Assembly (NCBI GenBank): GCA_008632985.1
Contig: QPGO01000235.1
Coordinates: 62,001 to 103,048, forward strand
Direction: 5' to 3'
From: Psammoneis japonica
Taxonomy: Eukaryota
DNA: 41,048 bases
Numbering within the stretch: position 1 is the first letter of the stretch; each line of letters begins with the position of its first letter. The translations under genes and the position numbers were made by a program. Below the pieces are notes generated by a model, which worked only from the letters and a program-made list of their open reading frames with translations, did no database searches and was not told the origin of the DNA. Below are positions 1 through 41,048 of the stretch, piece after piece.

Positions 1-752
1 AAGGAGACAAAAAGAAAAAGGGTAAAGGACAAACAAATGAAACAACTGAAAGATCTCACAATGAGGAAATGAACAACGAAATCAACGGGTGGAATGCCGC
101 AAAAAGCAACAAGAACTCTCGCACAAATTCCACGCAAAATTCACGCACCAAGGAAGACAACAACAAGGAGGAAAAACTCACACCTGATGACGAAAAACCC
201 TTTACACGAAGCAGAAAAAACAAAAAGGAGGAGAACTCAAAAGCAATCGCTCCGGCGAAAATTGCAATCACGGAAGAAGATCACATGCATGAAGAATCCT
301 CCGATGAAGACATCTTTCAACAACTCACAAGCAAGAATCACTCTACAGAATCCGATGAAGAAAACAAATGAGAAATGAATGAACAGGAGTCGCAGCAAAC
401 CGACACACTGCAAGATGAAGAAATCGAGGAAGAAGCGAATGACAGGGAGTCGCAGCGAATCGACACACCACAAGAAACTGAAGCCACCGACCAAACTGAA
501 GGAATTCCTTGGTGTCAGTTACGTCACAATGCATTTCTGACCATTCCACCATCCAAAAAGCCTCTGAAAGCAGTGGCCTCCATCCTGAGAGAATCCTTCG
601 CAACAATGCAAGAGATGCTTGGACAAGACGTTCGGATCGGCACATGGGACCCTGATCTAGAGGATGCTTTTGGTGAACCAACCTCTCCAGAAGACATTCT
701 GGAAGGATTGGCAAAGGAAAGAGAAATTCTAAGTGCTTTCCTGGGGGTGGAC

Positions 753-1913
753 CTCAGCTTGGTTTTGCCGTGTTTTTGAACAAAATTCCCCGGGATTGCC
801 ACCTTTTACCCTGTTTTTCTACGGAAAGGGTGAATTCCCGGGGAATCGACACAAATTGCCCTTCGTTGTGCATGCACCAAATGCACGAATAAAAAATTGT
901 GCATTGGCAATTCCCCGTTCTTCCCCTCTTGTACATTTCTACGTGTTCTGCGTGCCGGCATGCACAGAACCACACATCAGAATTGAAAATCAACAATCGC
1001 AACAAAAATGGGCAACACGCCATGGAGCGGCTCGCATCCCATTTATGACGGCTTTTGTCAAACAATGATGACACCAGTCAATCTAGTGAGTGACATTGCG
1101 ATTGACAGCATAAAATGTGAAATGAACAGATTCTTGATAGATTGTGTTTGGAAAAAAAAAGGTGTGTTGATGGATCGTTGCACTCATTCTTTTGTCGTGC
1201 GGTCACAAGTGCAAGCCACACGGCATCCACAGTAAAGTCCAAAGCAAAAGTAGAACTGTCTGTGGCAAATAAAAATGTGGCGGATTGAATGGCCTTGCTT
1301 GTTTTTCCAGTCGACACATCTTGTGTTCAGAATGAAGCGGATCGTTTAGAATCACTGTTGTCGTGCAGCTACAAATGCAAACCATGAGGCATCTAAAGCA
1401 AAGGCTCAGGCAAAAGTGGAACCTCACAAGGCTAATAAAAAATGTGGCAGATTGAGTGTTCATGCTCATTCTTTCCTTTGAACTGTCTCATTTGCAGAAC
1501 ACAGTGCATCGCGCATTCCTTCTTGTGTCGCGTGGTCACAAATGCAAACCACAAGGGCTCTAGAGCAAAGGACAAGGCAAAAATAGAACCTCACACAAGC
1601 AACATTGACACGGCTGATCCAATGGTAAAGTTTCTTCTTTCCTCACTCTGCCACAAGGGGCCGCTTTGTGTCGATGTGTCGATGCAATCATTGTCATCGT
1701 CGCTCGGTCATGGTGATAAAAGCACACCCGCCTAACTGTAATTACCACACATCACCGCATTCCATTCGTTTTTGTTCCCCTCCCCTGAGCCCTTTCAGGC
1801 ATTCCTTCCCGCAAAATTACCCTCATTTCCCGGGATTCCCCCAAAAGGGCAAGGCAACTTCCCCTCACCCTGGCCATTTTGGGGAATCCCCAAATGGGTG
1901 AAACCAAACCAAG
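753..1913. mobile_element. Non-autonomous TIR DNA transposon (MITE-like; hAT- or MULE-type TSD length)
   Basis: Flanked by direct repeat GGGGTGGACC (744-753 and 1913-1922; TSD 8 or 10 bp depending on boundary). Imperfect TIR CTCAGCTTGGTTTTGCC vs reverse complement of right end CTTGGTTTGGTTTCACC. Subterminal TTCCC(C)GGG(G)A motifs at both ends; no coding capacity. Confidence 0.8.
1185..1605 (+). repeat. Three degenerate ~165-bp tandem units inside the TIR element
   Basis: Recurrent gtcg..g.(t)acaa.tgcaa.cca...gcaaaa.t.gaac motif at ~1195, ~1360 and ~1527; aataaaaatgtggc.gattga follows the first two copies. Confidence 0.65.
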
Positions 1914-3150
1914 GGGTGGACCATCTCAACCCAAGAGTCAACGCCGAACACACAACATGTTGCCAACTTTGTTTCGTCCAGGTGTCAGAAGATTGCAGTC
2001 CCAGAATTGTGGCAGACTGTGGCGTGCAACTCTCAGGGATGTTTGCAGACATGGAAAAAGGCAAATTCTCCATTGGACGTAATCCCATGCCCTGTCAATT
2101 GACGCGCTTTGAATGCATTGGATGATGGTTGCATCAAAGCACCAAAACAATGAGCGAGCGGACATTGCACAAACAATTCAGCAAAGCTCTTGGCTCAGGC
2201 AGAGATTGCGACAGTCTTGGCATTCAATGGAGATCCATTGCAGGAAGGGACGGAAAAAGACCTGCCTTTGACAGGAACACACCGGACAAGAATCCGGAAG
2301 CTCTTCATGTCATCATCGAGTCCAGCAAAGTGCACAAAGTCAAGCTCGCGGCAGAATGACTGTGGAGGGCAGGTGCTCAGAAAAAAGTTCTGGGACTTGA
2401 ACTGCGCTTCGTTCCATGCCACTCGAACTCTGCCACACAGCATGCCTCAGACAAAACCAAAGAGAATGTCGACATGCTTCAAAAACGCCAACACTTCTTT
2501 TGCCAGAAAGTTGTTGGACAACTCAATTTCAGCTTTCTTGACAACCCGGACCATGAGATGCGTGTTGCTGGTGGAGAGACAACACTGTGACAGCATCTCA
2601 TGCAGAAACGGATGCCAGACCCCACCAACCCGGACAAGATCATTCCACTGATCCATCACCTTGATGTCAAGTGGAACAGACCAAATGATCATGCAATCAC
2701 ATTCCCGAGGAAATTGGTGGATCAAGTCTCACAAATGATCAACAACATCATCCCGGAATGTTTGCACATCTATGGTGCATCCGCAGAACCATGGTTCACG
2801 GCTGCAGGGATCGCCACGCACGAGCATTCGGGGTGCGATCCAGAAACTGGACTCACAACGTCCAAGGACAGTGAAATGTTGTCAGATGTGATCAAGGAAG
2901 ACCCCTGGGGCATGGAAGAGCAGTGGACGGATGAGAAAGCACAAACGAATGGAAAGGAAAGATGGAAGTCTTCTGATGGAAACAATCAGAGAAAAACAAG
3001 CGGACAGAAGGGAGCACAAGGCCCACCTGCAGCAGCACAGGAAGTCGCTGAAAAATTGTCTCAAGCTGCGGATGTAGAATCTGTTGGACATCTTAGAAAC
3101 AAGGATGACGACACACAGCATGCATCTGCCACGAGACGTTCAGTGACCTT

Positions 3151-3342
3151 TGTCAGCCTGTCTGCACCTGTCGCATGATGGACAGACTGGATGCGGATGA
3201 TGGCCAGACCATTCAGACAGACGAGCAGATCTCTCTGAGATCTGCTTCTCACTCTTTTCTTGCCAGCACTCGTGTTGTCAAAGTCCTGGCACTTTGGGGA
3301 GTCTTTAGACCATCGTCACCTCACACCTTTGGTGCTCTGTCA
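3151..3342 (+). repeat. 5' LTR of Copia 1
   Basis: TGTCAG...CTGTCA; 12 mismatches against 9768-9959 by manual alignment. Confidence 0.96.
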
Positions 3343-3352
3343 GGTTGTGGCC
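3343..3352 (+). promoter_or_regulatory. Primer-binding site of Copia 1 (GGTTGTGGCC, resembling the GGTTATGGGCCC half-tRNA-iMet type)
   Basis: Immediately follows the 5' LTR; resembles the copia-type PBS with a TA->TG change. Confidence 0.65.
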
Positions 3353-3519
3353 TTGCGCTGTGCCACAGACCTCTGCGCCAAGCTTTCCATTTTGATTCAT
3401 TTGTTTTGTGAGCCGACAGAGCGAGCCTCATCGTCTGATCCGACAACTTTTTGTCTGGCTTTCCCGGCATTTTTCATGACCGTAGAAACACACCAGATTG
3501 CTGCGCGCGCATGACCAAA

Positions 3520-5880
3520 AATGGCTCAACCAACTAAAACCATGGCATCTTCCGACCCCACTAAAGACGGGTTCCAATCCCAGGTGGGACTCCGTGTGAC
3601 ATTGGGCCCGTAGACTTCTGCGTGCAAGCTCTGCATTAAAGTTGTTAATCAACAAAAATGTGAATGATCGCCAACAGAAAAAGAGGCAATTTTGCGAACG
3701 TATCTCCTCCTTCACACTTGCAGCACATGAATGACAGTTTGCATGGTCATGTTCTGCAGACATTAAAGAATGTGCCCAGCGTGTTTTCATTGTCACAAAT
3801 GTTGAAAATAGAAAGCCTTTGGCTTCGCAAAACAGGAAGCATGAAACAATTTCGTAGAATGTCACACGTGGCCGTCTACGTGCGCGACATGCGGCGCGAT
3901 CCAAAAAACTGTTGATGTCACAGTTCAGTGCTGCGAGGTCCCACCCAGAGCTGGAACGCGTCTAAACCCGCTCTTCCGTCAATTGCAGAGATCTGCTACG
4001 AATTTGAGGCACATGCAACGATGCCACATCTACACAACTGCCTGAATGCGGTTTGTGCGGACTCCACAACCGATCTCGATCAATTTTTTGACGATCCAGA
4101 GCATGCGCAACCCAAGAAAGATTTTGCGGACATGATTCGTGATCATTTCATCTACGAAGCGTTCCCACCTTATGCAGCTGATCCTGCGGATGCAGAATCA
4201 ATCAAGACGATTGTGGATCAAGCCCCGTTTCGACTCATCGACCCTCAAAGGCCTCGTCTGGTCCGCTTGACGACTCCGATCTTGTCAAAGACGATCAAGA
4301 TGAACCTTCAGAACGGTGAACAATGCTTGTTCATTGCCACATCTGCCCAACACATGCATGTTGACCCGGACATGGTGTGGAACTGTTGCAACTGGAACGA
4401 GTTCTCTCTTACACCCTGTCAGCAGAAACAGCAGCCTCCGTCTCCTCCTCAGAAAACTGCAGGATCTAGCATGGTGAGTGTGAACGACTTGGTCAACGCT
4501 CTGCCTTCTGCAGTTTCTGCCAAGTCTCCTGGAAGCAATGCATCCTCCATTACATCCAAACACCTCTTCAATCCGAACACACTTCCAACAGATGTTCGTG
4601 AATGCTGTGACCGCAAAGAAGAAGGCAAAGTCACCCTCAAGAGCTCCCTCGTCCCCTGCGATCATGGATTCTGTCACTGTGTTGATGCATCCGATCGCAT
4701 CATCCTTGATGATGGCACCCTTTTCATCATGAGCTCGACCCCCGACCAGAAAATGTTGTTCAGGGAACCTCCTGCATGCCATGATGACTCTCCTCCTGGG
4801 ACACGCGCCTGGCACCAAAATTTCCAACGTCATGCCTTTGACTCGGGATGCTGCATGCATCCATTGTGGTGTTTTACCAAGGATCACGGTGGTGAGAAAG
4901 GTTTCAAGATCGGCAATGGCAAGGATGATGACTTGCCTCAATGCATGCACGTCCACTGCAAGGAAGCTCAGAGCTCTCTCCACAAGATTCTATCCAAGTC
5001 GGACATGTTCCCCAAGAACAGCAAGTGTCATCGGATTGTTGCATCATGCTGCGGCAACGGATGCAAGGCTCTCAAGCAGATCATCTACGAGAACCACCCT
5101 GCTTTCGACCACAATGCTCCAGGACTAGTTGATTCCCATCCTGTCCAAGGCAATCGATCATTGACGGACTGCCACATGATCTTCAATGATTTCCTACAGC
5201 CACGTGCCTGCACATTCAATGCAGACTCTACGTTGAGTGATCCACAAGAGATGACTGTCTTTGTCAAGAACACCAAGCATTCCAAGTTCTCATCTCGTGC
5301 TGCCAGAGATGAACGGAAGTCTCCAACCATGCAGAAGAAGCACACTGATGCACAGATTGTCGAGACTCTCTCTGATTTCCTCCGCCAGCCGGACAGCCCA
5401 TCCCTTGCCACCCGCCATCCAATCCCTGCCGCAAATGGAATCGAGCAAATGAGGACATGCGACACACGACCATTGATGTCAATGCTCTCCAGATCCCTGA
5501 GATCTCATCCATTGAACCTGTCGATGACTCTGCTGCTGAAGACACTGGTGCGGAATCCACACCTTCGGACACCTTTGACACTTTTTGCAACAAGTTGCAT
5601 GAACTCGAGGTCCCTTCCACAGACGAAGACCGCCTCCTCCATCATGTCTACTCGGCTTCAGTCCACAAACTCAAGGTTGCTCCAAACGAGGCTTCCAAGA
5701 AACCATGTCTCGTTTGCTCCGGTGAACACTCATTTGACGACTGTCCAGTCTTGAAGAACAACCCACACATCACCACTTTTGTCAATTCTTGAAGAGGGAA
5801 GCAGCTGTGCAAGCTTCTGAGTTCCAAGGACCCCAAGGACTGCTCCCCCCTCACCATGAAAACCCTGAAAATTTGACTGA
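3520..5880 (+). pseudogene. gag: Copia 1 gag (frameshifted) with CCHC zinc knuckle; start approximate
   Basis: ORF 3928-5754 plus frame 5457-5792 containing CLVCSGEHSFDDC (CX2CX3HX4C); lies between the PBS and the protease. Confidence 0.8.
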
Positions 5881-5985
5881 CTCTGGTGCCCCGCCCTCGG
5901 ATTTTCAATCGGGCCGTCGCAGCTAGTTTCGGATCTCCAACGCTGCCCGTTTTCTCCTCACCGAGACACCACTGATGTCAGCGGG

Positions 5986-8900
5986 ATGACCATGAAAGAG
6001 GGACTGACCGTCTCGTCATCTGTCGCTGAAATGCCTCTTTCTTCGCAGATTGACATGGATGCCACCCCCACCACTGCCATGAGGGTGTCATTTGACACTG
6101 GCAAATTGCCGGACGACGACCCTGCTCCTCAAGAAGACATTGTTGATGCTGCTCCTGCTCCGGATCCTTTGGAACAGGGGAGGGAAGACTCAGAAACACC
6201 AGAGTTTGAGGAATGCATTGACCTCACCTGTGATGACATGGCTGTCAAGGATGGCTTTGCTGCCGTCAACTCTGTTCGTGTTGCTCCAATCGACCCCCAC
6301 CAAGTCACCCAATCTCCTGAGCTGGAACTGCTGCGCTCCACTTGCTCTGTCAATGGAGTTAATTTTGCTCCAAATGAGCGTTGTGCTCAGTTGGATGCTG
6401 GTGCCAACATTGCGTGTGCAGGTGACCGTGACCTTCTTCATCGACACCAAGAATTCACCCCGTCCAATCCCTGCCCCCTTGCTGTCAATCCCGCCCTTGG
6501 CCATCAAGCTGTCCCAGTTGGATTCGGATGCCTGCAGATTCCTGCGGAGAACTCTGCCGGACATGTTGACGTTCGTGCACACTGCCACCCACAGATTCAA
6601 TCTACCTTGGTTGATGAACGACTTCTCCTTCGTCAAAATGGCACTCGTCGTGCAGATTGCAACGTTGATTGTATCCTCAAGTTCCATGATCTTGGTGCCT
6701 GCAAGTTTGTTGCACGACACCGACTGCGCAAGAGTCAGGACATCATCATTCATGGGAAGTTGATCAAAGGCAAATGTTTTACTCACCCTGTCATCCTCCC
6801 GGAATCTAACGACGCACTGGATGCATCTGTCAAGCGCCTCAAGACCAGTGACCCTTCTTTTGCCAATGAGTGTGAAGCGGTCTCTGCGTGTGTGATTGAG
6901 ACTTGTCGCACCCACCAACATGAAGCTCTTCGTGATGAACGCAAGTTGATCCCCCGAGCACATCAAGATGTCCCTTTCGAGAAGCATGCTGAGAAGAACA
7001 CTCCAGTCCAGTCTCTCAAGGCCGACACGGAACGTCTTTTATGGCATCAGCGGCTTGGTCACCCGAGTGATCAACACCTTCACAATGCCCACAAATGCGT
7101 GGAAGGTGTCCCCAAGTTTGCTCACGGAACTTCTCCCCTCAACACTTGTCCCACCTGTGCATGAGCAAAGCAGACAAAGGAACCTGCCGGTCCGAACACC
7201 ACTCTTGCTGCCACTCAACCCTGTCAAGGTCTTACGGTTGATTTTTCTTTCTCTGGCCTGCGCTCCAAGAACTCAGAGCGTGCCAAAGACCATGTTGGAT
7301 TGAATGGCGAGACTTGTTGGATCACCATTTACGATCATAAAACGAAGCGTCTCCATGGTGCAACTTGTGTCTCCAAGGCAACCCCTTTGAATTGGCTTTG
7401 CCACTTTCTGGAAGAGCACTCGCCAAAATGTCCCAACAAACATGTCTTCATGGATCAAGGAGGTGAATTGTGTCAAAATCCAGAGGTTTGGCGACTTTTC
7501 GAGGATGACTTTCACCATGCAATTCGTCCTGCGGGAAAAGATGCTTCAAATCAGAGTGGCCCAGTGGAACGCAGTCACTTGACTGTTGCCAATGCCATTC
7601 GGGTGATGCTCATTGGTGCCGATTTACCCACAAAATTCTGGCCATGTGCTTTTCATCATTTCACTCGGATCAACAACGCCGCGCCATCCCGTGGACAAAC
7701 TGCTGCTCCGATTGCTCTTGCCACTGGTCGAAAGGATGACTTCAAGAATTTCCGCACATTTGGTTGTCGAGTTTGGGCACGTGCTTCGAACCATCGTCCT
7801 GCCAAATTTTGCTCGGTCTCTCACAAAGGCATTTTCTTGGGCCATCTTCCGGACACCACCAAGAACATGCTCTGGCATGACACTGAGACTTCCCGTGTCA
7901 AGCTTGCCAAGCATGTTCGCTTCGATGAGGGCATGAACGACCTGTCCCGTGACTCGATTCCTCCGAATGTAGTCCACTTGGAGCGCACTCAAGATGGCAA
8001 AACTCCACCTGCCAAGACCTCAAGCATGATGGCACACGGCACTCCCGACAATGTTGTGATGGATCTCCCCGTGCTGCGTCGATTCTACATCGCCTGTGCT
8101 CGACACATTCTTTCTGTGTCAAACAACCCATCCAACGGATGTTTTTTGCTCTTGCTGCAACTGTGAGCTGCCCTGCACTTGGTGGTGATGCTCGTGACGC
8201 CTGTGCACATTCTCCACGGCCGTCACATCCTGTCCACGTTGCCACAGACAAAGCGCATGCTGCGTGGCACAAGGCTCGTTTTGGCATTGATTTGGACAGG
8301 AGCACGGTCCTTCCGATGCAACATGCACTTCAAGGACACCCAGAGGCCGGCGTGCTCTGGGAGACGCACATCAACGGCATTTTGTCTGATGTGAACTTGC
8401 TCTTTTGCAGCACTGCTCATGACAAATGCATCCATTCTGCCACTTTTGAAGGACACAAGGCATTGCTTCTCCGTCAGGTTGATGATTTCTCCCTCGCTTG
8501 TCCTGAAGAATCCATTGCGATCAAGATCTACGATGAGATTGGTGAGGCCCTCCAACTGGAATTGGAAACTTCTCCGCCCTTCAAGCATCTTGACATGATT
8601 GAAGAATTCAATGGTGTGGATGTCCATCAATGCAATGACTCCATTGGTGTTGCTGTTCACAGCTGTGTGCATCGGGTTTGTGCCTCGCATGGTTGGTCGA
8701 CACCGACGGACGAGGAACTCGATGATGACTGCAAGGCTGCACCTCTCCCGGTCGACTCTGTTCGTGAACTGCACACTGCCATTGGTCCAGCTGAAGGAAC
8801 CCCAGAGCATGCGGAGTTACAACAAGCTGCTGGATTCGGGTGCCGTGCCCCACTTGGTGAATTGTTGCATGCACATGTTGTCTGTCGATTGGATGTTGGG

Positions 8901-9588
8901 CATGGCATCACGACTCTGTCCAAGTTCTCCACTTGTCCTGCTGTGGTTCACTGCGATGCGCTCAAGGGCACATGCAAGCACCTTCGCCATGCCAAACATT
9001 GGGAATTGAACTGCAAGAAGCCTGCCCGAGACCCAAAACTACCCGCCTGCCCCTTCGAACGTCTCACCCCAGACCCAACCTTGCCATCGTTCCCTTGTCC
9101 TGAGTGTGATCATCAACTCGTTGCTTTCTTGGATGCTGCGCATGGCAATGACCTCCGCAACCATTGCTCTACAACTGGCCATGCTTGCATGTTGGCTGGC
9201 GCTGCCATGTCTTTTCGATGTAAGACCCAATCGGCGACAGCTGCGAGTTCCATGGAAGCTGAATTCCACGCGGCTGGCACTGCTGCCAAGCGCATGTCCT
9301 TTGCCTTCGTCACGTCCTGCAAGACCCAGGCTTCCCTCAGACTGAGCCAACCCTGCTGCACACTGACAATGAATCAGCAATCAAGATCATCAACCATTCG
9401 ATCCCGACCGAGCGCGCTCCCGTCACACTGAGATCCAGTTTTTTGTGATCCAAGAATGGAAGGACACGGGCAAGATTGTCACCAGACATGTCCCTGGCAT
9501 TGTCAACCCTGGCGATGACCTTGCCAAGGCTCTTGGCTGGGCACTGCACGCTCGCCATGCTCGACGCATGATGGGACACTGCTGTTGA
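5986..9588 (+). pseudogene. pol: Copia 1 pol: protease, integrase, RT, RNase H; stops, frameshifts and an apparent deletion between IN and RT
   Basis: AQLDAGAN (PR); LWHQRLGHP...CPTC (pre-integrase/Zn); FMDQGGE and NQSGPVERSH (IN); ALQGHPEAG and LLRQVDDF (RT); FLDAAHGND, SSMEAEF, TDNESA, NPGDDLAK (RH). Confidence 0.93.
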
Positions 9589-9758
9589 CACTTTTTTTTC
9601 TGCGGTGGCCTCCCTGCTGCGCACTGCCCCTTTTGTTTGATTGTGTGTTGGGCATGGACACTTGTCGTGTCCTGTGTGTTGTCTCTCTGTTTTTCCTCAC
9701 ATCATCCCTGTTCTTTGGTTTGATCTGCACTCTTCTACATGTTGAGATGTCACAGATC

Positions 9759-9767
9759 AGGGGAGGG
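9759..9767 (+). promoter_or_regulatory. Polypurine tract of Copia 1
   Basis: AGGGGAGGG abutting the 3' LTR. Confidence 0.85.
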
Positions 9768-9959
9768 TGTCAGCCTGTCTGCACCTGTCGCATGATGGAC
9801 AGACTGGATGCGGATGATGGCCAGACCATTTGGACAGACGAGCAGATCTCTCTGAGATCTGCTTCTCACTCTTTTCTTGCCAGTGCTCGTGTTGTCACAG
9901 TCCTGGCACTTTGGGGAGTCTTTAGACCATTGTCACCTCATGCCTTCAGCACTCTGTCA
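9768..9959 (+). repeat. 3' LTR of Copia 1
   Basis: Direct repeat of 3151-3342 followed by TSD ACCTT. Confidence 0.96.
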
Positions 9960-10289
9960 ACCTTTGATCTGGCAAATCTGGAAAATCATCACGAATGTGA
10001 ACAAGAGGAGGACGCATCCATCAAAACTGTGCCCTCAACCCGAGTGAAACTAAAGGAGGTACAAGAAATGAACAAAGCCCCAATTCAAGAATTAGAAAAG
10101 CTGCGAGTGGCAAAAGATCAAGACACTGGTCCGGCCCAGAAGGGCTCCAAGCAAAGAGACCCAGAAGACCATCCCAGCTCTCAGGCCGAGGGAGTGGGCC
10201 AGGATCCCCAGTCCCCACCATCCTCAGCGGTCACGACAACTGCCGCAAAAGGAGGATGTAAATCAAGACACCATTGGTCATCAATTGGA

Positions 10290-13200: not shown

Positions 13201-13938
13201 CAAGGCAATGGAAACCAAAGTGGGAAAATGGGTGGATCAAGCACAATGCGGACATCTCAATGGAACGGAGGCCTGGTTCTCTCTGACAGGTGGCAAACAT
13301 GAGATGCATTGAGCATCCACTGGCAGCTGCATCCCTGACAAAAGCGGAGTGTCAGCAAACAGAGAAACCGCTGCACGAAATGGCATTGCCGGCAATGGGA
13401 CATCCTTGGTCATTCCCCAAGAGAATTCTCTTTGCTCCCAAACAATTCAATGGACTGGGCTCATCGGAACTTTTTGTGAAACAGGGGATTGCTAATGTGG
13501 CTGTCTTTTTGCAACAAACAGACTCACCATTGATGACAGGGAAAGAGATGCAACACACATGCGAGACCATGGCACTCAAACTCGGGCATGGAGACAGAGT
13601 CTTCTCACTGGACTACAACAAATTTGCAATTTCAGTCACAAAGACATGGATCAAATCGCTTTGGCACTTCTGCTCATCATGCTTGATTGAATTGCTTGCT
13701 CTGACAATTGTGATTCCACTGCTGCGGCAAAATGACATGTGCTTGATGGAAGCATTTGAAGCACATGGCTGCAAAGGCAACCATCTCAGAAAGATCAACC
13801 TGTGTAGAATGTGGCTGAAAGCGGTGCGGTCATCAGACGCAGTGTCAGGAGATGGCAGAAGGATGCTCCCGGATTGTTGGCACAGCACTGCAACCTGTCA
13901 GACTGCGTGCAACTGGCCGAAGGCAAGGTGTCCCTCTG
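10290..13938 (+). pseudogene. LINE ORF2: apurinic endonuclease plus reverse transcriptase, 3'-truncated
   Basis: APE: RVAFHNVGG, GLTEIN, GRWTW, VGGDFNE, SDHCLLWID. RT: IPKK, LQIIALFDA, HGSRK, DAKSCCDRI, QGIFQGHG, FVDDTD, TLGV. Coding similarity stops where the triplicated block starts. Confidence 0.9.
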
Positions 13939-15067
13939 TGGCACATGAAGATGCTGTCATCCCAAGTGGTGCCACTCTATTTTGGCTGCAATGCACGTGA
14001 GCCTGTTCTTCGCCACCTGTTTTTCTGTTGATGTTGTTGGCGGTTGTTGGCTGTTTGTCTCGTGACACTCACGTGCAGGTGTGCTGCACATGGCAAGTGC
14101 TGAACATGAGTGTGTGTGTCACAACTCCTTTTGCTGCTGATGTTGTCGCCTGTCTTGTGACACTCAGTCCACTGTGAATTGTCACATTTCTGCATCAGAC
14201 AGGAGACAGGTGTTGATGTGTTGACAGGGAAGCGAATTCGATCTGTGGGGTTCCTTCATTTAGCTGAGAATGTGTTGCTGCTAAATGTGACATTGTTTTT
14301 GTTGCTTTCTTCTCATCAATCAACCCATTTCAGGAAACATGTCCCTCATTCAGGGATCGGGTCTATGGCACCACTGACAGCTTGCCAGAAAAATGCCACC
14401 TTTGGCTGGTTTGCCCCCTGTTTCTGCTGGAATGTCGTGCCACTTCCAGGGAACAGTTGCGACAGTGCATTGTTTGTGGCTTTTTGTCAATTCATCCTTT
14501 TACATTTAACCCACAGAGGCATGTCGCGGCATTTTTGTTGGTGTTTTCATGAAATTAGTTTCTTCAACTGTTGGTTCCAGCATCATTAAAATTCTAGACT
14601 CTAGAGCCCTCTCCACTCTAGCTAGAGCAGGGTGCACAGAGAGCAGCTGTTGAAGCAAAGAGTGCTAGACTGCTGCTCCAGCTCTGGCTGGAGAGCGAGT
14701 GGAGGGCCCGATCATGCAGCAGGTGCAGTGGTGTCTGCAGTGCGACGACCCCTTGGAAAGATTTGTTGCTGACGCGAGCGTGAGAGGATGATTTCAGAGC
14801 TTCTGATTGGCTGAATCGAGGCATTTTTTAAAAACCACGCGGTTTTTGCACTGCTCTCCCGGTGCAAATTCTACATGCGTGAATGCGAGCTCTCAATCAA
14901 ACGATCCAGTGCCATCTGCTGTGAGCCCTCACAGGTTTAGACCGAAAAGGGCAAGAAGAGGAGAAAAAGGAAAGAAAAAGAAAGAAGAGAGAGGAAAAGA
15001 GAAAAAAAGACAAAAGAGACTCTGTTGTTTCCCATTGCAACAAAAGCGTTCAAAAAAGCTGTGTTTT
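13939..15067 (+). repeat. Copy 1 of locally duplicated non-coding block
   Basis: Aligns over its length with 15736-16867 (offset ~1.8 kb). Confidence 0.93.
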
Positions 15068-17501: not shown

Positions 17502-17533
17502 ACACAACAGGATCTTGTTGTTTTTGTCGTTTG

Positions 17534-22037: not shown

Positions 22038-22098
22038 TTGTCGTCAGAGGAATGCTTGTGTCATGATTCTGAATGCCGTGTTCCAACTGTCGCGGCAG

Positions 22099-22302: not shown

Positions 22303-22321
22303 AAGATTTTGACTTGGACGC

Positions 22322-23311: not shown

Positions 23312-23346
23312 ATTTCTGTTGCTGTTTTTGGATGCTCACATGCTTT

Positions 23347-26776: not shown

Positions 26777-27098
26777 ATGGCCTCACCGGTTCAGTTCGTG
26801 AAAAGTGACATGGTTGTGGCGGCAAGCAAGGAAAACACGACATGAATTGGTGCAAAAACATTGGTGCACTGCGTTGTTCCCATCAATGAAAACATCAACA
26901 GGTGAGAATGAATCGAGTGCATTGGGATCAATGATTGCTTTGAACACGAATGACTGGCTGCAAAGGTTGTCATTCTATGGAAAGGAGAAAATAAGTTGTG
27001 ATGTGACAGTGGCAAGCAATGTGGGCACACCTCACCGGGATGCCAGATGGCAAGAACACACCTCACCATGATGCGTCAGGGCAAGAAGTCTGGCAGGG

Positions 27099-33311: not shown

Positions 33312-36300
33312 ATGCTTTCTTGTGTTGCAACCAATTTGTCTCGAATGACAACCACAACCTTTGCCAGTGGTTTTGGTGGAGTCACCATGTTTTCCCACCA
33401 GACCATGACTGGACCATCCTGTGTTGATGCATCCATGCCGGATCCACCATGGCCAACTGAAGATCCAATGCAGCATGTCAAGTCCTTCTCCAATTTAAGG
33501 GATCTTGAAGGCCAACAATGTCAAGCATTGACACCATGCTTGCCTGTCAACGCACCCATTGTTCTCGACACTGGAGCATCCTCGTTGCTCACACCTCACT
33601 TGAGTGACTTCACAGGACCACTGGAACCTGTTGGCACTACGACCATCAACGGATTATCCTCCAGCACCCAAGCAGTTGGTCAAGGTTCAAGGTTTCGTGG
33701 AATGGGACGTTGTCGACTGTTGGAACGTCATCCGGACCATCCGATTGCAAGCCCACTGTGTTCCCGATGCTTCCATTTGACTCTTCAGCCCTCAAGCCTG
33801 TTTTCAAGAGAATGGAAACCAAGGAGAATGTTTGGTGCATGGAAACAAAGCAACCCTCACTCTTCTGAAAGGCAGTGCGCTTGAGTTCCCGCACAACAAG
33901 GAAAACAACTTGCCTTTTGTGATGATGTCCGAGCCAATCTCAGCTGGAGTCACCCAGTGCAATTTGGCTCCCGTCAGCACCAAAGCATGCATCACTTCAT
34001 TTCTTTCAGTCACCTTGCACAGACCAACCAGAATCTAACACCCGGCCAGAAGGAGCTTCTTTTGATCCATCAGAAACTTGGTCATGCCAGCTTCCAGCAC
34101 ATCCAACACTTGTGCGCTGTTCCACGGGATCCTGCCAAATCCCACATCATCAAGCCTGCTTCTCAAGCCGTCTCCAGTTGTGCCGCACCTTCATGTGCTG
34201 CCTGTCAACTCACAAAGCAGAAACGACGAACTCCTGACCGTCGTGGCACATCCAATCCTCCGCCGTTGACTTTGCAAGAGGGAGCCTTGGCACCTGGTCA
34301 ACGCGTCTCCGTTGATCAAAACATCAGCCGTGTCCCTGGCCATCTTCCGACGACTGAGGGACGTGAACCCAAGAAAGACAAGCATTGTGGGGGCACGATT
34401 TTTGTTGATCATGCTTCCACCTGTGTCCATCTGACCCATCAAGTTGGTCTCACTGCAGGTGAAACCATTCATGCCAAGCGGTCCTTCGAGCAGCTCAGTG
34501 ACCAATTTGGGGTCCGCATCAAGTCCCACCTTGCTGACAACATCCCATTCAGCACCAAGGCTTTCATGGATGACCCAGAAGAAAACAACCAAACTGTTGA
34601 TTTTTCTGGTGTTGGAGCTCATCATCAAAACAGCACAGCCGAGCGCTCCATCCAAACTGTCACCTCATGGGCACAAGCTGTGCTCCTGCATGCCATTCTA
34701 ATGTGGCCTGATGCTGCCAATCTGGAGTCATGGCCTTTTGCCATGACCCATGCGACCTGCCTGTGGAACCACATCCCAAAGTCTGACACTCGTGCCGCGC
34801 CAGTTGAGATCTTCTCTAAGCAACGATTTGACACTCATGCGCATCTACAGTGCTTACAGGCATGGGGGTGCCCCACATGTGTTCTTGATCCTAAGTTACA
34901 AGACGGCAAGAAACCACCTGAGTGGGACCCCAGGAGTCACCGTGGCCAACATCTGGGCATCTCACCTGATCTTTCCACCAACATCGGCCTCATTTTGAAT
35001 CTGTCAACCAGCTGTGTTAGCCCTCAATGTCACATGGTCTATGACAACCACACTTCGCAACAGTTCCCAACAATGACTCCGGCGGCTTCTTCCAGGATGT
35101 TCCCTTTGCCGCTGACCTTTGGGAATCCCTCCCAACCGCAGACTCGCCAGTGCACAATGCTCCGCCTGAGCCTTCCAATGCTTCTGATGACCCTTGCCAT
35201 TGCTTGCCGGCCTTGCACAATGATTGGCTGACCCCCACTGAGTGCCGTCATTGCGCCACTCATCGACATGACCGCCGTCAACGTCGTCTCAAAAACTCCA
35301 AAACGGCCCCCACCGCCGAGCCTCCTTCAACCTCTTTCATCACAGCTCCAGAGGGTGAGCTTCCTGCTGCAACAAACAAATCATCAGCTGACAATCTAGA
35401 ATCTGCAACTTCAGAGGCTCCAGAGGGAGTCAAGATTGATGAGTTCAGCAATGACAGCGATGACGAATTGTCCCTCGTCAATCATCACGACTTGCCTGAG
35501 GACCCAGACTTAGGCCCTGATGAAGCTGAGCCTCCACAACTGGCTCCAAATGCCACCACAACTCCAACTCGGACTCAAAGTGGTCGCACCATCAAGAAGC
35601 CAGATCTCTTGATTAAAGCAATGCATGCTGACATCCGCACTCCACCCAACAAGTCACCGAATGCTCATAAAAATCCAAAACGTTCCGTCAAGTTGGAAAC
35701 ACTGAACAAACAGTTCTTGATGGCCCTGCGTTGGGATGGCATCACCAACGCACTTTGGTCCAAAGACTTGCGCGCAATGCTCAATCTTTTCAACAAAAAC
35801 ACCAATCAAGTTCATGGCACACTCAAAGAAATGCATCCTCTTGCCCTCGCAGCTGATGCAAATTTGGCTGATGATCCAACTTGGGAAGAAGCAATGAGTG
35901 GCCCTGATCAAGCAGCCTGTCTGAAAGCTTGTGACATTGAAATGAACTCCCTGGTCAAAGGCAAGGATGCCTGGAAAGAAGTGGATCAACAAGATTGGAT
36001 GAATGTCCTGCCGTCCACTTGGGCCTTCAAGTGCAAACGATGCCCCGATGGGTCTATCCGAAAATGCAAAGCCCGATTCTGCATCCGCAGAGACAAGCAA
36101 TTGGAAGGCGTTGACTGTTTTGATGCCTTTGCTCCAGTTGTCAATTGGACAACAGCATGGCTGATGCTCACACTTTCTCAAATTTTGGAGCTCTTGACAA
36201 AACAAGTTGATTGTGTCACCGCTTTTGTTCATGCTCCGATTGACAAGGATCCCAAATGGGGCACCATGACACCCAAAGAGCGGGAACGCTCTGGCATTTT

Positions 36301-37500
36301 TGTGCAAATGCCTTGCGGATGCTCCAAGCCCGGCAAAGTGCTGAAACTCAAACAAACCGTGCATGGTCTCAAACAAGGACCTTGCAATTTTTTCCTGCAC
36401 CTTAAGTCAAAACTTGAAGATGCCAGATTTCAATCACAAGATGATGTTGATCCGTGTCTGTTTGTATCTGACAAAGTCATCTGCCTCACGCACATTGATG
36501 ACACACTGTTCTTCTCTCTAAAACAAGAGCGCATCGACAAAGTGATCGAAAAACTCAAAATTGATGGCGGTCTGGCCATCAAAGTTGAAGATTCTGTCGC
36601 AGGTTTTTCAGGAGTCCACATTGAACGCGACACCGACAATGGCACTGTCAAGCTCACTCAAAGCGGTCCATCCAAATGTGTCGTCAAAGCCCTCAATGCA
36701 GGCCATCTGCCGAAGGCCCGAACGCCCACACTGGCTGCTCCCTTGGTCAAGGACACCAACGGAGACCCACCAAATGGAGCCCACAATCATGCCAGCATGG
36801 TTGGCATGCTTCAGCATCTCCAAGGCCATTCTAGGCCAGACATTGCCCATGCCGTTAGCTCAGCAGCCAGATTTGTTCATGGCCCTCATCGCTTGCATGA
36901 ACTGGCCCTTGAACGGATCGGGTGACACCTGAAGGGCACTCTGGACGAAGGTTCAATCCTCAAGCCATCTGGGGACTTCAACATTGACGTGTTTGTTGAC
37001 TCAGATTTTGCTGGACTGTGGCCGCACGAAGACAAGCATGACCCGGCTTGTGTCAAAAGCCGAACAGGATTTGTCACTTGCACCTCAAACTGTCCTGTCA
37101 TTTGGTCCAGTGAGCTTGCACCCGAGATCACTCTCTCAACAATGGAAGCAGAGTGCAATGCTTTTTCCACTTGCATGAAAACTGTCCTTCCCTTTCTACG
37201 CACCGTACAAGCCATTTCTCAAGGCATTGGAGTTGGTCCAGGAACTGCCAAGACTGTCCGCACCATTGTGTGGGAGGACAATGCTGGAGCCTTGACTCTG
37301 GCTAATGTGGAACCTGGCTGAGTTACGCCTGGGTCCAAGCACTGCACAATCAAGCATCATTGGCTCCGTTCACAGCTCAAACCAAATTGAGTTGCTGTGT
37401 CCAAGATCGCAGTGGACTTGCAATGCGCTGACATTCTGACCAAAGGTCTCGTTGCTGTTAAATTCGAGGCTGTTTGAAAGTTGCTTTGCAGTTGGCAGCT
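33312..37500 (+). pseudogene. pol: Copia 2 pol: protease, integrase, RT, RNase H; frameshifted
   Basis: IVLDTGAS; IHQKLGH...CAAC; VSVDQ, IFVDHAS, HLADN, HHQNSTAER; WAFKCK, KARF, VHGLKQ, DPCLF, THIDD; FVDSDFAG, STMEAE, WEDNAGA, ADILTKGL. Confidence 0.94.
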
Positions 37501-37509
37501 TCTTCATTC

Positions 37510-39279: not shown

Positions 39280-39543
39280 AAAGAGGGGACAAGCGTCCAA
39301 GCGCTTTCTGTGGAGCCATGTCTGAGGAAGTTTTTTCGTCTTTGGGCAAAAAGCCTGCCAAATCCAATGCCACCACCAAACCATCCACAAAAAGAAGTTT
39401 CAAATGATTGGTTTCTTCCCATTGTTGGCTTGGATTTAATTGATGTTTGGCAAGTTCACATTCAGGTCAAACAGCATGTTTCAATGGCTCATCTGACTTT
39501 GGCATGCGACCTGCAGGAAGCCATAAGATCGGATGTACATCAG

Positions 39544-40295
39544 GTGTGAAAACAAAAGCAACACCATTGGAAAGCATTCGTTCTGTAGATAAAAGTGTCG
39601 CCATTGATTGTTGCAAAACCACAAAACGCGCCAGGAATTTTGCACGCAACTGCGGGGGTCGTTTGGATGCATGAATGCTGATTCGGTTGTGCTTGAGGTG
39701 TGAAAACAAAAGCAACACCATTGAAAAGCGCTCGCTCTGTAGATGAAATTGTTGCCATTGATTGTCCCACAATTCTGGGCACTTCTAAAGCAATGCCTGT
39801 TTGAGCAAAACGCACCAGGAATTTGGCGCGCAACTGCGGGGGTCGTTTGGATGCATGAATGCTGATTCGGATCTGCCAAGGGTGTGGAAATAAAAAGATG
39901 CCATTAGAAAGCTGTTGCTCTGCAGGTGATCTTACTGCCATTGACTGTCCCACAATTCTGAGTGCTTCTAGAGCAACGCCTGTTTAAGCAAAACGCACCC
40001 CAGGATTTTGGCACGCAACTGCGGGGTCGTCCAGACATCTCGACGCCGATTCAGATCTGATGGGGGCACAGAAATAAAAAAGACACCATTGGAAAGCTCT
40101 TGTTCTGCAGACAATGTTGCTGCCATTGATTGTCCCACAATTCCAATTGCTTTTAAAGCAACGCCTGCTCAAGCAAAATGCACAATGATTTTGGCGCGCA
40201 TCTGCGGGGTCTTTTGGACACGTCGTTGACAATTCCAATCTGCTGGAGGTGTCGAAACAAAAACGCACCTTTGGAAAGTGCTAATTCTCTGGACA
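39544..40295 (+). repeat. Tandem array of ~183-bp units (about 4.3 copies, first with a deletion)
   Basis: Recurring aaa(c/t)aaaa...ccatt.gaaag...gccattga.tg...gcaactgcgggg at ~39544, 39698, 39882, 40064 and 40247. Confidence 0.9.
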
Positions 40296-40299
40296 ATCA

Positions 40300-40720
40300 A
40301 CACAAACTGTAAAATGTGTTTGTGTTGTTTGCTGCAGGTGCTCTTCGACCGTTGGTGGCAAAAGGCCGAAGGTGCCAATGCTGCCAATTTGGTTGTGATT
40401 GAAACAAGTGCAGCAATTGGCTGGCAAAAATGAAACCCTCAATTGCTCACATGCATGTGGATGCTTGCAACACAGCTTCCAATCACTGAATGTGCAACAC
40501 ACCCTGAACAGATTTGCTGCCACACCACAACTCCACTCAACTGCAGTGCAAACGCATTTCATCCAAAAATTCTGTAGAACTTGGATTGGTGCAAGCGGGG
40601 CACCTTGAGCAGGTCGATGCGCCTGTCTGACACATTGCCATTTGGAAACCAGCCTTGTTGGAGCTGCAACAAGCAGTTGCCAATGCCGCTGAGTTCTTGT
40701 GCAGCATGCCTCGCTGCTGG
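40300..40720 (-). pseudogene. C-terminal fragment of PIF/Harbinger (DDE_Tnp_4-like) transposase
   Basis: NFWMKCVCTAVEWSCG...NLF...EQLRVSFLPANCCTCFNHNQ...FGLLPPTVEEHL matches the MxxVRxxVEWxYG...LxNCxxC...PPTxEEYL C-terminus pattern. Confidence 0.72.
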
Positions 40721-41048
40721 ACAACACGGCGAGACCGTGCACAAGCCTCTTGCACGTGGCAACGTGGCATTGTTGACACGCACCTGGGAAGCACGACCAC
40801 AGGAGGGCGTGGCTCTAGGTCTCAGGCAATTCCAGAAGGATGCTGAGAGAGCATCCGTGTGAAGCACACTGGCCCATCGTCTGGCCCACGATGGCAGCGT
40901 GATTCCACACGATGACATCACTCGTGCATGGCGCGTGATGGCTTGATTTGCACGATCCATGATGCGAATGCACGATCGATTTGATGCGATCCAAATGCAA
41001 ACGAACAGGGATTTGGCAAGATTCCCCATTCACACGATCCCATTTTCT

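What the first reader, a model, noticed from the sequence alone, without database searches (positions are those of the whole stretch)
1..41048. Window-wide TpA->TpG/CpA hypermutation of repeats, opposite in direction to RIP
Seen: TA dinucleotides are very rare in the TE coding regions (roughly 15-20 by eye in 35,000-37,500, about tenfold fewer than base composition suggests). Conserved Tyr of several element types read Cys or His: YIDD->HIDD, YGLKQ->HGLKQ, KYKAR->KCKAR, DYF->DCF, EAEY->EAEC, EEYL->EEHL, DAKSCYDR->DAKSCCDR. Both outcomes are one event (T->C, equivalently A->G, at palindromic TpA) on either strand. Established: fungal RIP (CpA->TpA) creates TA, and 5mC decay hits CpG; neither removes TA. 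Inference: a repeat-directed mutational or genome-defence process acting on a modified T or A at TpA. I do not recall a described mechanism for it.
Basis: partly seen in the sequence, partly recalled or inferred. Interest (0 to 1): 0.92.

Follow-up and report, generated by a model that had tools for sequence, protein, structure and literature searches.

The report
TpA-erasing hypermutation of transposon DNA
A 41-kb stretch of dead transposons, probably from a diatom, has had almost every TA step rewritten to TG or CA after the elements inserted, the same rare 'reverse-RIP' mutation pattern that a 2026 preprint caught happening live in an unrelated alga.

Summary
The window holds 320 TA where 2634 +/- 39 are expected (O/E 0.12; every 1-kb bin is at or below 0.28), with TG 1.64, CA 1.51 and CG 0.54. 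In four unrelated repeat families, conserved tyrosines read Cys or His. Related Copia copies from 78 of 80 metagenome loci keep their tyrosines and have TA O/E 0.36-0.90.

The two LTRs of one Copia insertion have an intact 5-bp target duplication. They differ mostly by CA-versus-TG double mismatches. The change therefore happened on integrated DNA, on both strands, far faster than CpG decay or background substitution.

Surviving TA sites show a flank preference: target A followed by T > C > G ~ A. CpG decay is a second, separate process.

A 2026 bioRxiv preprint reports TpA-only A->G/T->C hypermutation of integrated foreign DNA in Bigelowiella natans. This window looks diatom-derived, so it is a second, more saturated case.

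The enzyme, and whether targeting is repeat-specific, remain untested because no genome was available.

The parts
1..41048 (.). Continuous TpA-depleted, TpG/CpA-enriched, CpG-poor tract made of degraded repeats
   Evidence: TA O/E 0.12, TG 1.64, CA 1.51, CG 0.54. Every 1-kb bin is at or below 0.28. In 21001-41000, the summed depth of run X1 contigs is 89-2713 in 29 of 30 bins (26,836 in the last), against about 55-66 for single pieces, so the tract is multi-copy.
3146..3150 (+). Target-site duplication ACCTT, 5' side of Copia 1
   Evidence: Read from alignment A3. The same 5 bases follow the 3' LTR.
3151..3342 (+). 5' LTR of Copia 1 (192 nt, TGTCAG...CTGTCA termini)
   Evidence: 93.75% identical to 9768-9959. 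There are 7 difference events: 5 CA<>TG double mismatches, 1 CG/TG and 1 transversion.
3343..9767 (+). Internal region of Copia 1 (gag-pre-integrase, SH3-like and RVT_2 remnants)
   Evidence: Pfam hits: PF13976 in ORF 5881-7161, PF25597 in ORF 7165-8163, PF07727 (E 9.3e-5, below the curated cutoff) in ORF 7953-9428. TA O/E of the whole element is 0.12.
9768..9959 (+). 3' LTR of Copia 1
9960..9964 (+). Target-site duplication ACCTT, 3' side of Copia 1
11781..13997 (+). Second retroelement: reverse-transcriptase ORF with two in-frame TGA (motifs DAKSCCDR, TFVDD)
   Evidence: Read through with X at the stops (P0121). It has 12 environmental homologues, 3 of them with precomputed PF00078. P0122 matches RVT_1 at E 2.6e-5. 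Conserved Tyr is kept at 0 of 11 positions (8 Cys, 2 His, 1 Gln). TA O/E 0.10.
13939..17505 (+). About 1.8-kb unit repeated in tandem (two copies plus a partial third)
   Evidence: The copies are 88-93% alike. 39 CA<>TG double mismatches were counted over three pairwise comparisons that are not independent. TA O/E 0.22.
20682..23308 (+). Repeat family of unknown type, with internal 48-nt and 102-nt tandem repeats
   Evidence: ORF 20682-21608 has 39 relatives at E<=0.001 in the representative library, the best 51% identical. None of the 6 scanned has a Pfam family. By eye in the pairwise alignment, most Tyr of P0152 read Cys, His or Phe. TA O/E 0.08.
24101..26782 (-). Another repeat family of unknown type, frameshifted ORFs
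   Evidence: ORF 24381-25634(-) has 2 homologues, the best 65% identical over 155 aa, with no Pfam family. TA O/E 0.07.
33885..37400 (+). Copia 2 pol region (integrase remnant, RVT_2, RNase H part). No LTR pair was found.
   Evidence: PF13976, PF25597 (weak) and PF07727 at E 1.7e-18. Best homologues are 60% identical; the named ones are diatoms. Tyr loss. No LTR match. TA O/E 0.11.
39529..40297 (+). Roughly 185-nt tandem array
40344..41048 (.). Very high-copy repeat at the window end
   Evidence: Summed contig depth in run X1 is 26,836, against about 55-66 for single pieces.

Best explanation
What it is. The window is a block of dead transposable elements: two Ty1/copia elements, another reverse-transcriptase element, at least two unclassified repeat families, and tandem repeats. 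The source is probably a diatom.

What happened. After integration, this DNA went through a TpA-specific A:T->G:C hypermutation. At a 5'-TA-3' step, either the A of the top strand or the A of the bottom strand is converted, so the site ends as TG or CA. The strand appears to be chosen independently at each site. The rate depends on the flanks. It is fastest when the target A is followed by T, then C, and slow when followed by G or A. A-rich 3' flanks also protect.

A second process. Ordinary CpG->TpG/CpA decay, as expected for CpG-methylated repeats, runs in parallel.

Shown here: the signature, its specificity, its timing after insertion, its action on both strands, and its absence from related copies elsewhere.

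Inferred: this is the same kind of process as the experimentally measured TpA hypermutation of integrated foreign DNA in Bigelowiella natans. It is aimed at silenced or foreign DNA rather than the whole genome. The chemistry is enzymatic deamination of adenine in DNA (A->inosine, read as G).
For: 1. TA O/E is 0.12 across 41 kb, about 59 SD below shuffles.

2. Conserved Tyr (TAY) reads Cys (TGY) or His (CAY).
- Copia: 14 of 15 positions, with 1 kept.
- Second retroelement: 10 of 11 positions, with 0 kept.
- The two further families show the same by eye.

3. Codon-level spectrum at 414 conserved Copia columns. Of 79 amino-acid differences, 27 need exactly one TpA->TpG/CpA change and 26 need one CpG->TpG/CpA change. 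In 78 related loci pooled, the figures are 61 and 193 of 4281.

4. Related Copia loci from metagenomes have TA O/E 0.36-0.90 in 78 of 80 cases and keep most Tyr. The depletion is therefore not a family trait.

5. Copia 1 has TG..CA LTR termini and a perfect 5-bp target duplication.
- Its LTRs differ at 5 CA<>TG double sites, 1 CpG site and 1 transversion.
- 4 CpGs are intact in both LTRs, so double CpG decay cannot produce 5 discordant sites.
- One TA survives in both LTRs, in a slow TTAG context.
- Across all in-window repeat pairs, 84 of 360 difference events are CA<>TG doubles.

6. An additive single-strand flank model fits the surviving TA sites. Rates by the 3' neighbour are T 2.26, C 1.23, G 0.46, A 0.30. 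The likelihood-ratio test against a uniform rate gives 263.6 on 3 df. The ordering repeats in both halves of the window.

7. Contigs of a public run at depth about 55-66 reproduce the window. 7 of 8 listed pieces show 0 other letters.

8. The same signature arises de novo in B. natans mutation-accumulation lines. 230 of 231 mutations in two viral regions were A->G or T->C, and all of these fell on TpA. Those rates were about 1000-fold above the rest of the genome.
Against: - No host gene or single-copy sequence of this organism could be examined. Targeting to repeats is therefore inferred, not shown.
- Run X1 may be the data the assembly was built from, and its platform is not on record. It is not independent confirmation.
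- The flank model uses Copia relatives as a stand-in for the true ancestors of all 41 kb. It fits imperfectly: Pearson X2 is 31.0 on 12 df, and ATAA shows 21 observed against 9.1 fitted.
- The one natural eukaryotic enzyme shown to deaminate A in DNA, amphioxus ADAT2, prefers 5'-GAA-3', not TA (passages read). The ADAT2 attribution offered by the preprint is therefore weak.
- Because TpA is a palindrome, a T-directed chemistry (T->C at R-T-A) predicts exactly the same sequence data.
- The taxon is inferred from TE homology only.
Confidence: 0.75

Rival explanations
1. Same signature, different chemistry. The thymine of TpA is the target: for example it is oxidised to 5-hydroxymethyl- or 5-formyl-uracil by a TET/JBP-type enzyme, or otherwise modified, then mispairs with G, giving T->C in the context R-T-A.
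For: - TpA is a palindrome, so every count here fits a T target with a 5' neighbour preference A > G > C ~ T equally well.
- The only natural DNA A-deaminating ADAT2 tested prefers GAA, not TA.
- Recalled, not from any call: dinoflagellate 5hmU is enriched at TpA, and 5-formyluracil mispairs with G.
Against: - No evidence for such a base in this organism.
- The B. natans authors favour adenine deamination but tested neither chemistry.
- No enzyme is known that oxidises T specifically at TpA in diatoms. This last point is recalled; no search was run on it.
Confidence: 0.2
2. The TpA->TpG/CpA bias is genome-wide in this organism and is not directed at repeats. It is visible here only because dead TEs are under no selection.
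For: The window has no boundary and no host gene for comparison. No genome is held.
Against: - In Copia 1's LTRs, TA sites turned over nearly completely, while only 1 of 10 CpG copies and 1 other position changed. A genome-wide rate hundreds of times background at every TA would put a heavy load on genes (inference).
- In B. natans the process is confined to particular regions.
- Related TE copies in other organisms are not depleted.
Confidence: 0.12
3. Sequencing or base-calling artefact. A modified base at TpA in heterochromatic repeats is read as G or C, and the true sequence is TA.
For: The platform of the only holder run is not on record, and that run may be the assembly's own data.
Against: - Contigs with k-mer depth about 55-66 match exactly over 391-758 nt in 7 of 8 listed pieces. 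That is not what noisy long reads give (inference).
- The two LTRs have identical flanks yet show opposite outcomes (CA vs TG) at 5 sites. A deterministic miscall would not do that.
- An unrelated metagenome contig, L041, shows the same signature.
- In B. natans the changes are heritable, newly arising mutations seen in Illumina data.
Confidence: 0.03
4. A-to-I editing of retrotransposon RNA (ADAR- or ADAT-like), fixed by reverse transcription and integration.
For: A->G with a 5' U/T preference resembles RNA editing enzymes (preprint discussion).
Against: - LTRs are identical at integration, yet they differ by CA<>TG doubles.
- Both strands are hit about equally, and the TG:CA ratio shows no strand-coordinated clustering. 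X2/df is 1.01-1.62 in the window against 1.20-1.90 in controls.
- Tandem repeats and non-retroelement families are affected too.
Confidence: 0.02

Closest known systems
TpA hypermutation of integrated NCLDV and virophage DNA in Bigelowiella natans (Mettrop et al., bioRxiv 10.64898/2026.01.13.699255). Read: abstract, Introduction, Results, Discussion. Not seen: Methods, figures, supplements.
   Same: - Only A->G/T->C changes, only at TpA, on both strands (TpG or CpA outcome).
- It affects integrated foreign or selfish DNA.
- The long-term trace is TpA depletion with CpA+TpG gain, in clusters enriched for reverse transcriptase and transposase domains.
- The window passes that paper's cluster cut-offs (Rho TpA <= 0.43, CpA+TpG >= 1.52) with 0.12 and about 1.57, computed here as simple O/E.
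   Different: - Taxon: TE homologues point to diatoms (stramenopiles), not a chlorarachniophyte (rhizarian).
- Extent: depletion is far more advanced and covers at least 41 kb unbroken (0.12 against 0.45 for their NCLDV region).
- Targets: here they are LTR and other retroelements and repeats.
- CpG decay is superimposed.
- A flank preference (TAT > TAC >> TAG ~ TAA) is seen here and is not mentioned in the preprint's text.
- Here the process is inferred from its trace, not observed in real time.
Repeat-induced point mutation (RIP) of Neurospora and other fungi
   Same: Dinucleotide-specific transition hypermutation that riddles integrated repeats with missense and nonsense changes on both strands and leaves a strong dinucleotide skew.
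   Different: - The direction is opposite. RIP turns CpA into TpA and lowers GC. Here TpA is destroyed and GC rises.
- The RIP indices are inverted: TpA/ApT is 0.14 and (CpA+TpG)/(ApC+GpT) is 1.71 (counts).
- Dependence on duplication was not tested here.
- In B. natans a single-copy region is hit.
5-methylcytosine deamination at CpG in methylated repeats
   Same: It produces TpG/CpA excess. It is present here as a second process: CG O/E is 0.54, and 8 of the 9 changed conserved Arg codons are CGN->CAN/TGN.
   Different: It cannot remove TpA or change Tyr codons. L041 shows total TA loss with CpG intact (CG O/E 0.92; 19 of 20 Arg kept).
Deaminase hypermutation of retroelements in animals (APOBEC3 on DNA, ADAR on RNA)
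   Same: A host enzyme-like signature recorded in integrated retroelement copies. ADAR also prefers a 5' U.
   Different: - APOBEC gives C->T.
- Both of those act before integration and are strand-coordinated.
- Here the changes came after integration, hit both strands, show no strand clustering, and require a strict 5' T.

Membership tests
B. natans-type TpA hypermutation | Substitutions are A->G / T->C at TpA only | tested here: met
   Tyr->Cys/His at 14 of 15 and 10 of 11 conserved positions. 27 of 79 amino-acid differences need one TpA change, against 1.4% in controls. AT, AA and TT are not depleted. CpG decay is an additional process.
B. natans-type TpA hypermutation | Both outcomes occur (TpG and CpA), meaning either strand is hit | tested here: met
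   Cys and His outcomes both occur (14 and 8 among 28 Tyr columns). CA<>TG discordance between LTRs and between repeats.
B. natans-type TpA hypermutation | TpA depletion coupled to CpA+TpG enrichment, in clustered 1-kb windows | tested here: met
   All 41 full 1-kb bins have TA O/E <= 0.28. TG is 1.64 and CA 1.51. The preprint's cut-offs are 0.43 and 1.52. Its exact Rho formula was not read.
B. natans-type TpA hypermutation | Confined to foreign or integrated DNA while the rest of the genome mutates normally | not testable with these tools
   No genome is held. The window holds only repeats.
B. natans-type TpA hypermutation | Acts on DNA already resident in the genome, at rates far above background | tested here: met
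   LTR pair of one insertion: 5 discordant TA-derived sites, against 1 CpG change and 1 transversion in 192 nt. Numbers are small. Newly arising mutation was not observed.
Fungal RIP | C->T at CpA creating TpA; high TpA/ApT and low (CpA+TpG)/(ApC+GpT) | tested here: not met
   TpA/ApT = 320/2357 = 0.14. (CpA+TpG)/(ApC+GpT) = 8068/4705 = 1.71. The usual RIP thresholds (>0.89 and <1.03) are recalled, not from a call.
RNA editing fixed by retrotransposition (ADAR-like) | Changes predate integration, so both LTRs carry them identically; strand-coordinated clusters | tested here: not met
   LTRs are discordant at 5 sites. The TG:CA ratio is not over-dispersed relative to controls.
ADAT2/TadA-type deaminase as the agent | Known DNA context preference of the enzyme matches T-A-Y | tested here: inconclusive
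   Amphioxus ADAT2 prefers 5'-GAA-3' on E. coli DNA (passages). The window implies T-A-T > T-A-C. No deaminase gene of this organism could be examined.
Ty1/copia LTR retrotransposon (the carriers) | LTRs with TG..CA ends, a 5-bp target duplication, and integrase before RVT_2 | tested here: met
   Copia 1 has 192-nt LTRs and the duplication ACCTT, with PF13976, PF25597 and PF07727 in order. Copia 2 has the domains but no LTR pair was found.

The most novel reading that the evidence does not exclude
A TpA-directed DNA-editing defence against selfish DNA is not a peculiarity of one chlorarachniophyte. It operates in diatoms and other marine protists as well, and it drives LTR retrotransposons to near-complete loss of TA and of every tyrosine codon. 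It would be a 'reverse RIP' that raises GC. Its agent would be a natural deaminase, or T-modifying enzyme, that acts on double-stranded genomic DNA with a T-A-Y preference and hits sites one at a time rather than in strand-coordinated runs. Two metagenome contigs would be further instances from unknown hosts: L041 with zero TA in 3,085 nt, and L050 with TA O/E 0.21.
Probability: 0.45. Interest if true: 0.85.

Novelty: new member of a known kind. Interest (0 to 1): 0.7.

Why it matters
- The only described case of TpA hypermutation is one preprint on one alga. A second, saturated case in what looks like a diatom would suggest the process is widespread among SAR protists and acts on retrotransposons as well as viral inserts. 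Further traces sit in environmental contigs.
- It adds mechanistic constraints any candidate enzyme must reproduce: action on integrated DNA, either strand chosen site by site, and a 3' pyrimidine preference.
- A natural enzyme that makes A:T->G:C changes in chromosomal DNA would interest the base-editing field.
- Practical consequences for annotation. Such tracts lose TAA and TAG stops (134 and 88, against 953 TGA), so long false ORFs appear in all six frames. They also lose all Tyr, so profile searches barely recognise the TEs.
- The process shifts local GC upward, which matters for composition-based binning and for calls of horizontal transfer.

Tried and rejected
- TE versus host genes. 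No genome is held for the window, so this comparison was impossible.
- Six-frame translation. Instead, 251 stop-free ORFs of at least 75 aa were scanned. Pfam recognised only the two Copia elements, plus two sub-threshold chance-level hits.
- Rfam at gathering scores: 0 matches. tRNA genes: 0.
- Sequencing runs. No RNA holder is listed. Of three runs from one sample, only X1 holds the stretch. Contigs cannot show rare variants, so ongoing mutation could not be checked. Of the 40 differences shown (of 393), 15 were CpG-type, 3 were CA/TG doubles, 1 was window CA against other TA, 12 were transversions and 6 were other transitions. This is a partial listing and is not used as evidence.
- Strand-coordinated runs of outcomes. 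The Tyr outcomes looked clustered by eye, but the TG:CA ratio in 100-1000-nt bins is no more dispersed than in controls. Rejected.
- Outcome versus the preceding base at Tyr codons. After C/T: 7 Cys to 1 His. After A/G: 7 to 7. This is in the direction the flank model predicts, but the sample is too small.
- TA O/E against CG O/E across 1-kb bins: Spearman 0.18, p = 0.27, no link.
- LTRs for Copia 2 were not found.
- A viral-contig scan for Copia relatives confirmed none.
- Cluster look-up of 7 homologues returned no organism names. Earlier-findings look-ups returned nothing relevant.
- Literature. Searches found no report of TpA hypermutation in diatoms or any organism other than B. natans. 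The library lacks most subscription journals. PMC9258296 was opened and is irrelevant.
- Selection against TA (stop-codon or nuclease avoidance) is rejected, because catalytic Tyr residues are destroyed and the copies are dead.

Full report
**1.

The window has 320 TA dinucleotides where base composition predicts about 2,634 (200 shuffles: 2634 +/- 39). That is O/E 0.12. Every full 1-kb bin lies between 0.03 and 0.28, and every annotated segment between 0.07 and 0.22, so the window contains no boundary.

TG (1.64) and CA (1.51) are in excess, and CG is low (0.54). AT (0.90), AA (1.21) and TT (1.23) are not depleted, so the loss is specific to the TpA step and is not a general loss of A or T.

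One side effect: only TGA stops remain common (953 TGA, 134 TAA, 88 TAG). As a result the window has 251 stop-free frames of at least 75 codons across all six frames.

**2. What the window contains**

Pfam recognises only two Ty1/copia elements.

- Copia 1 is a complete insertion. It has 192-nt LTRs at 3151-3342 and 9768-9959 with TGTCAG...CTGTCA termini, flanked on both sides by the 5-bp duplication ACCTT.
- Copia 2 (33885-37400) has integrase, RVT_2 and RNase H remnants. No LTR pair was found.
- A third element (11781-13997) is a reverse-transcriptase ORF with two in-frame TGA. It has 12 environmental homologues, and P0122 matches RVT_1 weakly.
- Two more ORF families (20682-23308 on +, 24101-26782 on -) have relatives in environmental data but no Pfam family.
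- There is a 1.8-kb tandem repeat, a roughly 185-nt array, and a very high-copy repeat at the right end.
- There are no RNA genes and no recognisable host gene.

Named relatives of Copia 2 are all raphid pennate diatoms: Cylindrotheca, Nitzschia and Seminavis, about 50% identical. The nearest Atlas clusters of the second retroelement list Bacillariophyta as the commonest phylum in all three top rows, though phylum is known for only 1, 7 and 1 members. For Copia, the top clusters list Oomycota and Bacillariophyta. I therefore take the source to be a stramenopile, most likely a diatom. This rests on TE homology alone.

**3. It is a mutation, and it hits TpA**

I laid homologous proteins on the window and kept columns where they agree.

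- In Copia 2, Tyr is kept at 0 of 9 conserved columns (4 Cys, 5 His). Asp is kept at 19/19, Pro at 31/31 and Trp at 15/15.
- With a panel of nine intact homologues covering both Copia elements, 14 of 15 conserved Tyr read Cys or His, and one is kept.
- In the second retroelement, 0 of 11 are kept (8 Cys, 2 His, 1 Gln).
- Pairwise alignments of the two unclassified families show the same substitutions by eye.
- The six longest frames hold 0-4 Tyr each in 309-739 codons.

At codon level, 79 amino-acid differences fall on 414 conserved Copia columns. Of these, 27 need exactly one TpA->TpG/CpA change and 26 need one CpG->TpG/CpA change. Only 7 need another transition and 10 a transversion.

So two processes are superimposed. 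CpG decay is visible in Arg codons: 8 of the 9 changed conserved Arg are CGN->CAN/TGN. It contributes to the TG/CA excess, but it cannot touch Tyr codons.

**4. Controls from relatives**

One scan of metagenome contigs returned 80 related Copia loci.

- 78 of them have TA O/E of 0.36-0.90, mostly 0.5-0.7.
- Of the 80 loci, 79 had at least 5 conserved Tyr columns. In 77 of the other loci these are mostly kept, with 0-3 Cys/His replacements each.
- Pooled over the 78, only 61 of 4,281 differences (1.4%) are of the TpA type and 193 (4.5%) of the CpG type.

The depletion therefore belongs to these particular copies and not to the element family.

Two loci stand out.

- L041 (3,085 nt) has no TA at all, where 142 are expected. 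It keeps 0 of 11 conserved Tyr (9 are Cys or His). Its CpG is normal (O/E 0.92; 19 of 20 Arg kept).
- L050 (1,693 nt) has TA O/E 0.21 and CG 0.54.

L041 shows that TA erasure occurs elsewhere in nature and does not depend on CpG decay. A caveat applies: one of the two search patterns contained an intact Tyr codon, so the scan was biased against mutated copies.

**5. It happened on integrated DNA, on both strands**

LTRs are identical when an element inserts. Copia 1's LTRs differ at seven places: five adjacent double mismatches where one LTR has CA and the other TG, one CG/TG, and one transversion.

A CA/TG discordance can arise from an ancestral TA or an ancestral CG that mutated in both copies on opposite strands. 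Here four CpGs are intact in both LTRs and only one of ten CpG copies has changed. Double CpG decay should therefore give about 0.03 such sites, not five (inference). The five sites were TA.

If the two outcomes are about equally likely, roughly as many sites again mutated concordantly. Only one TA survives in both LTRs. Since insertion, TA sites have thus turned over almost completely, CpG by about 10%, and other positions by about 0.3%. These numbers are small, but the ratio has the same order as the roughly 1000-fold reported for B. natans.

Over all repeat pairs inside the window, 84 of 360 difference events are CA<>TG doubles. Another 42 are TA against TG or CA, and 75 are CpG-type. The three tandem-copy comparisons are not independent.

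This rules out editing of the RNA before integration. It also argues against a deterministic base-calling error, because identical flanks gave opposite outcomes.

**6. Flank preference**

The surviving TA sites are far from random. ATAT occurs 0 times and TTAA 55 times, though base composition predicts 169 for each.

Measured against the tetranucleotide frequencies of the 78 unmutated relatives, the surviving fractions run in this order:

| Context | Surviving fraction |
|---|---|
| ATAT | 0.00 |
| ATAC/GTAT | 0.016 |
| ATAG/CTAT | 0.055 |
| GTAC | 0.078 |
| ATAA/TTAT | 0.11 |
| CTAC/GTAG | 0.20 |
| GTAA/TTAC | 0.23 |
| CTAA/TTAG | 0.41 |
| CTAG | 0.47 |
| TTAA | 0.54 |

I fitted a model in which each strand's A is hit at a rate set by its 3' neighbour, and the two strands add. 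It gives T 2.26, C 1.23, G 0.46 and A 0.30. The likelihood-ratio statistic against a single rate is 263.6 on 3 df. The same order appears in both halves of the window. The fit is imperfect (Pearson 31.0 on 12 df).

Survivors are also twofold enriched for A at the second position 3' of the target (0.52 against 0.26).

Read as a T target, the same data mean 5' A > G > C ~ T. The preprint's text mentions no flank context. Its figures and supplements were not available.

The strand choice shows no clustering. The TG:CA ratio in 100-1000-nt bins is no more dispersed than in controls.

**7. Is the sequence real?**

One public run (X1, coded) holds 74% of the sampled words of 30001-40000. Its contigs, at depths of about 55-66, match the window over 391-758 nt. 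Seven of the eight listed pieces have no other letter.

In all, 2,423 contigs lay on 21001-41000 at 90% identity or more (523 at >=99%, 592 at 95-99%, 1,308 at 90-95%), so the tract is multi-copy.

The run may be the assembly's own data, and its platform is not recorded, so this is not independent proof. Taken together with the LTR discordance, the independent contig L041 and the heritable de novo events in B. natans, I put an artefact at about 3%.

**8. Comparison with what is known**

Full-text searches found one matching description: Mettrop et al., bioRxiv 10.64898/2026.01.13.699255. I read its abstract, Introduction, Results and Discussion.

- In mutation-accumulation lines of Bigelowiella natans, 231 of 302 nuclear point mutations fell in an integrated giant-virus region and a virophage region. 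All but one were A->G or T->C, and all of these were at TpA. Rates there were near 6e-7 against 3.5e-10 elsewhere, and only some lines showed it.
- The genome also has 124 clusters of TpA-poor, CpA+TpG-rich windows and 324 TpA-poor gene models, enriched for reverse transcriptase and DDE transposase domains.
- The authors propose DNA adenine deamination by an ADAT2 homologue, untested.

The window meets every sequence-level criterion of that phenomenon. It differs in four ways: probable host lineage; degree (0.12 over at least 41 kb, against 0.45 for their viral region); targets; and the superimposed CpG decay.

I cannot fully exclude that the window is B. natans itself. Three points argue against it. 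The nearest named or taxon-labelled relatives of two TE families are diatoms. None of four searched ORFs had a homologue above 65% identity in a database that includes public proteomes. The enriched domains the preprint's text describes do not include Copia domains.

The process is the mirror image of fungal RIP: TpA/ApT is 0.14 and (CpA+TpG)/(ApC+GpT) is 1.71 (counts).

The ADAT2 idea is weakened by the one biochemical precedent. Amphioxus ADAT2 prefers GAA, not TA, when deaminating A in DNA (passages only).

**9. Verdict**

- The interpretation as a TpA-directed hypermutation of resident selfish DNA is well supported.
- Its chemistry, and its restriction to repeats, are inferred.
- The phenomenon is no longer undescribed, but it is known from a single preprint in one species.

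This is best filed as a new, more extreme member of that kind, probably in a second eukaryotic supergroup lineage. New detail here includes the timing after insertion, the site-by-site choice of strand, and the T-A-Y preference.

Noticed in passing
L041 (metagenome contig, 3,085 nt): A Copia-bearing environmental contig with zero TA dinucleotides (142 expected). It keeps 0 of 11 conserved Tyr, yet CpG is normal (O/E 0.92). This is an independent, fully saturated instance of the same signature in an unknown host.
   Followed up: partly
L050 (metagenome contig, 1,693 nt): TA O/E 0.21, CG 0.54, TG 1.46, CA 1.48: the same composition as the window. However, 6 of 9 conserved Tyr are still present. 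It may be a partly mutated copy from a related organism.
   Followed up: partly
window 40344-41048: Summed contig depth in run X1 is about 26,800, against about 55-66 for single pieces. That implies a repeat present in hundreds of copies. It has no Rfam or Pfam match.
   Followed up: no
window 1-41048: TAA and TAG have been erased (134 and 88, against 953 TGA), so stop-free frames of 150-626 codons occur on both strands and overlap one another. Gene finders would over-call ORFs here, and Pfam sees only weak TE matches.
   Followed up: yes
window 20682-23308 (+) and 24101-26782 (-): Two repeat-encoded protein families with environmental relatives (39 and 2 hits) but no Pfam family. Their element type is unknown.
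   Followed up: partly
window 13939-17505: A unit of about 1.8 kb in tandem (two copies plus a partial third). Its TA O/E is the highest in the window (0.22). It may be younger, or rich in the slow TTAA/CTAG-type contexts.
   Followed up: no
window, surviving TA sites: Beyond the immediate neighbour, survivors are twofold enriched for A two bases 3' of the target (T two bases 5' on the other strand). A/T-tract flanks therefore seem to protect a TA step.
   Followed up: partly
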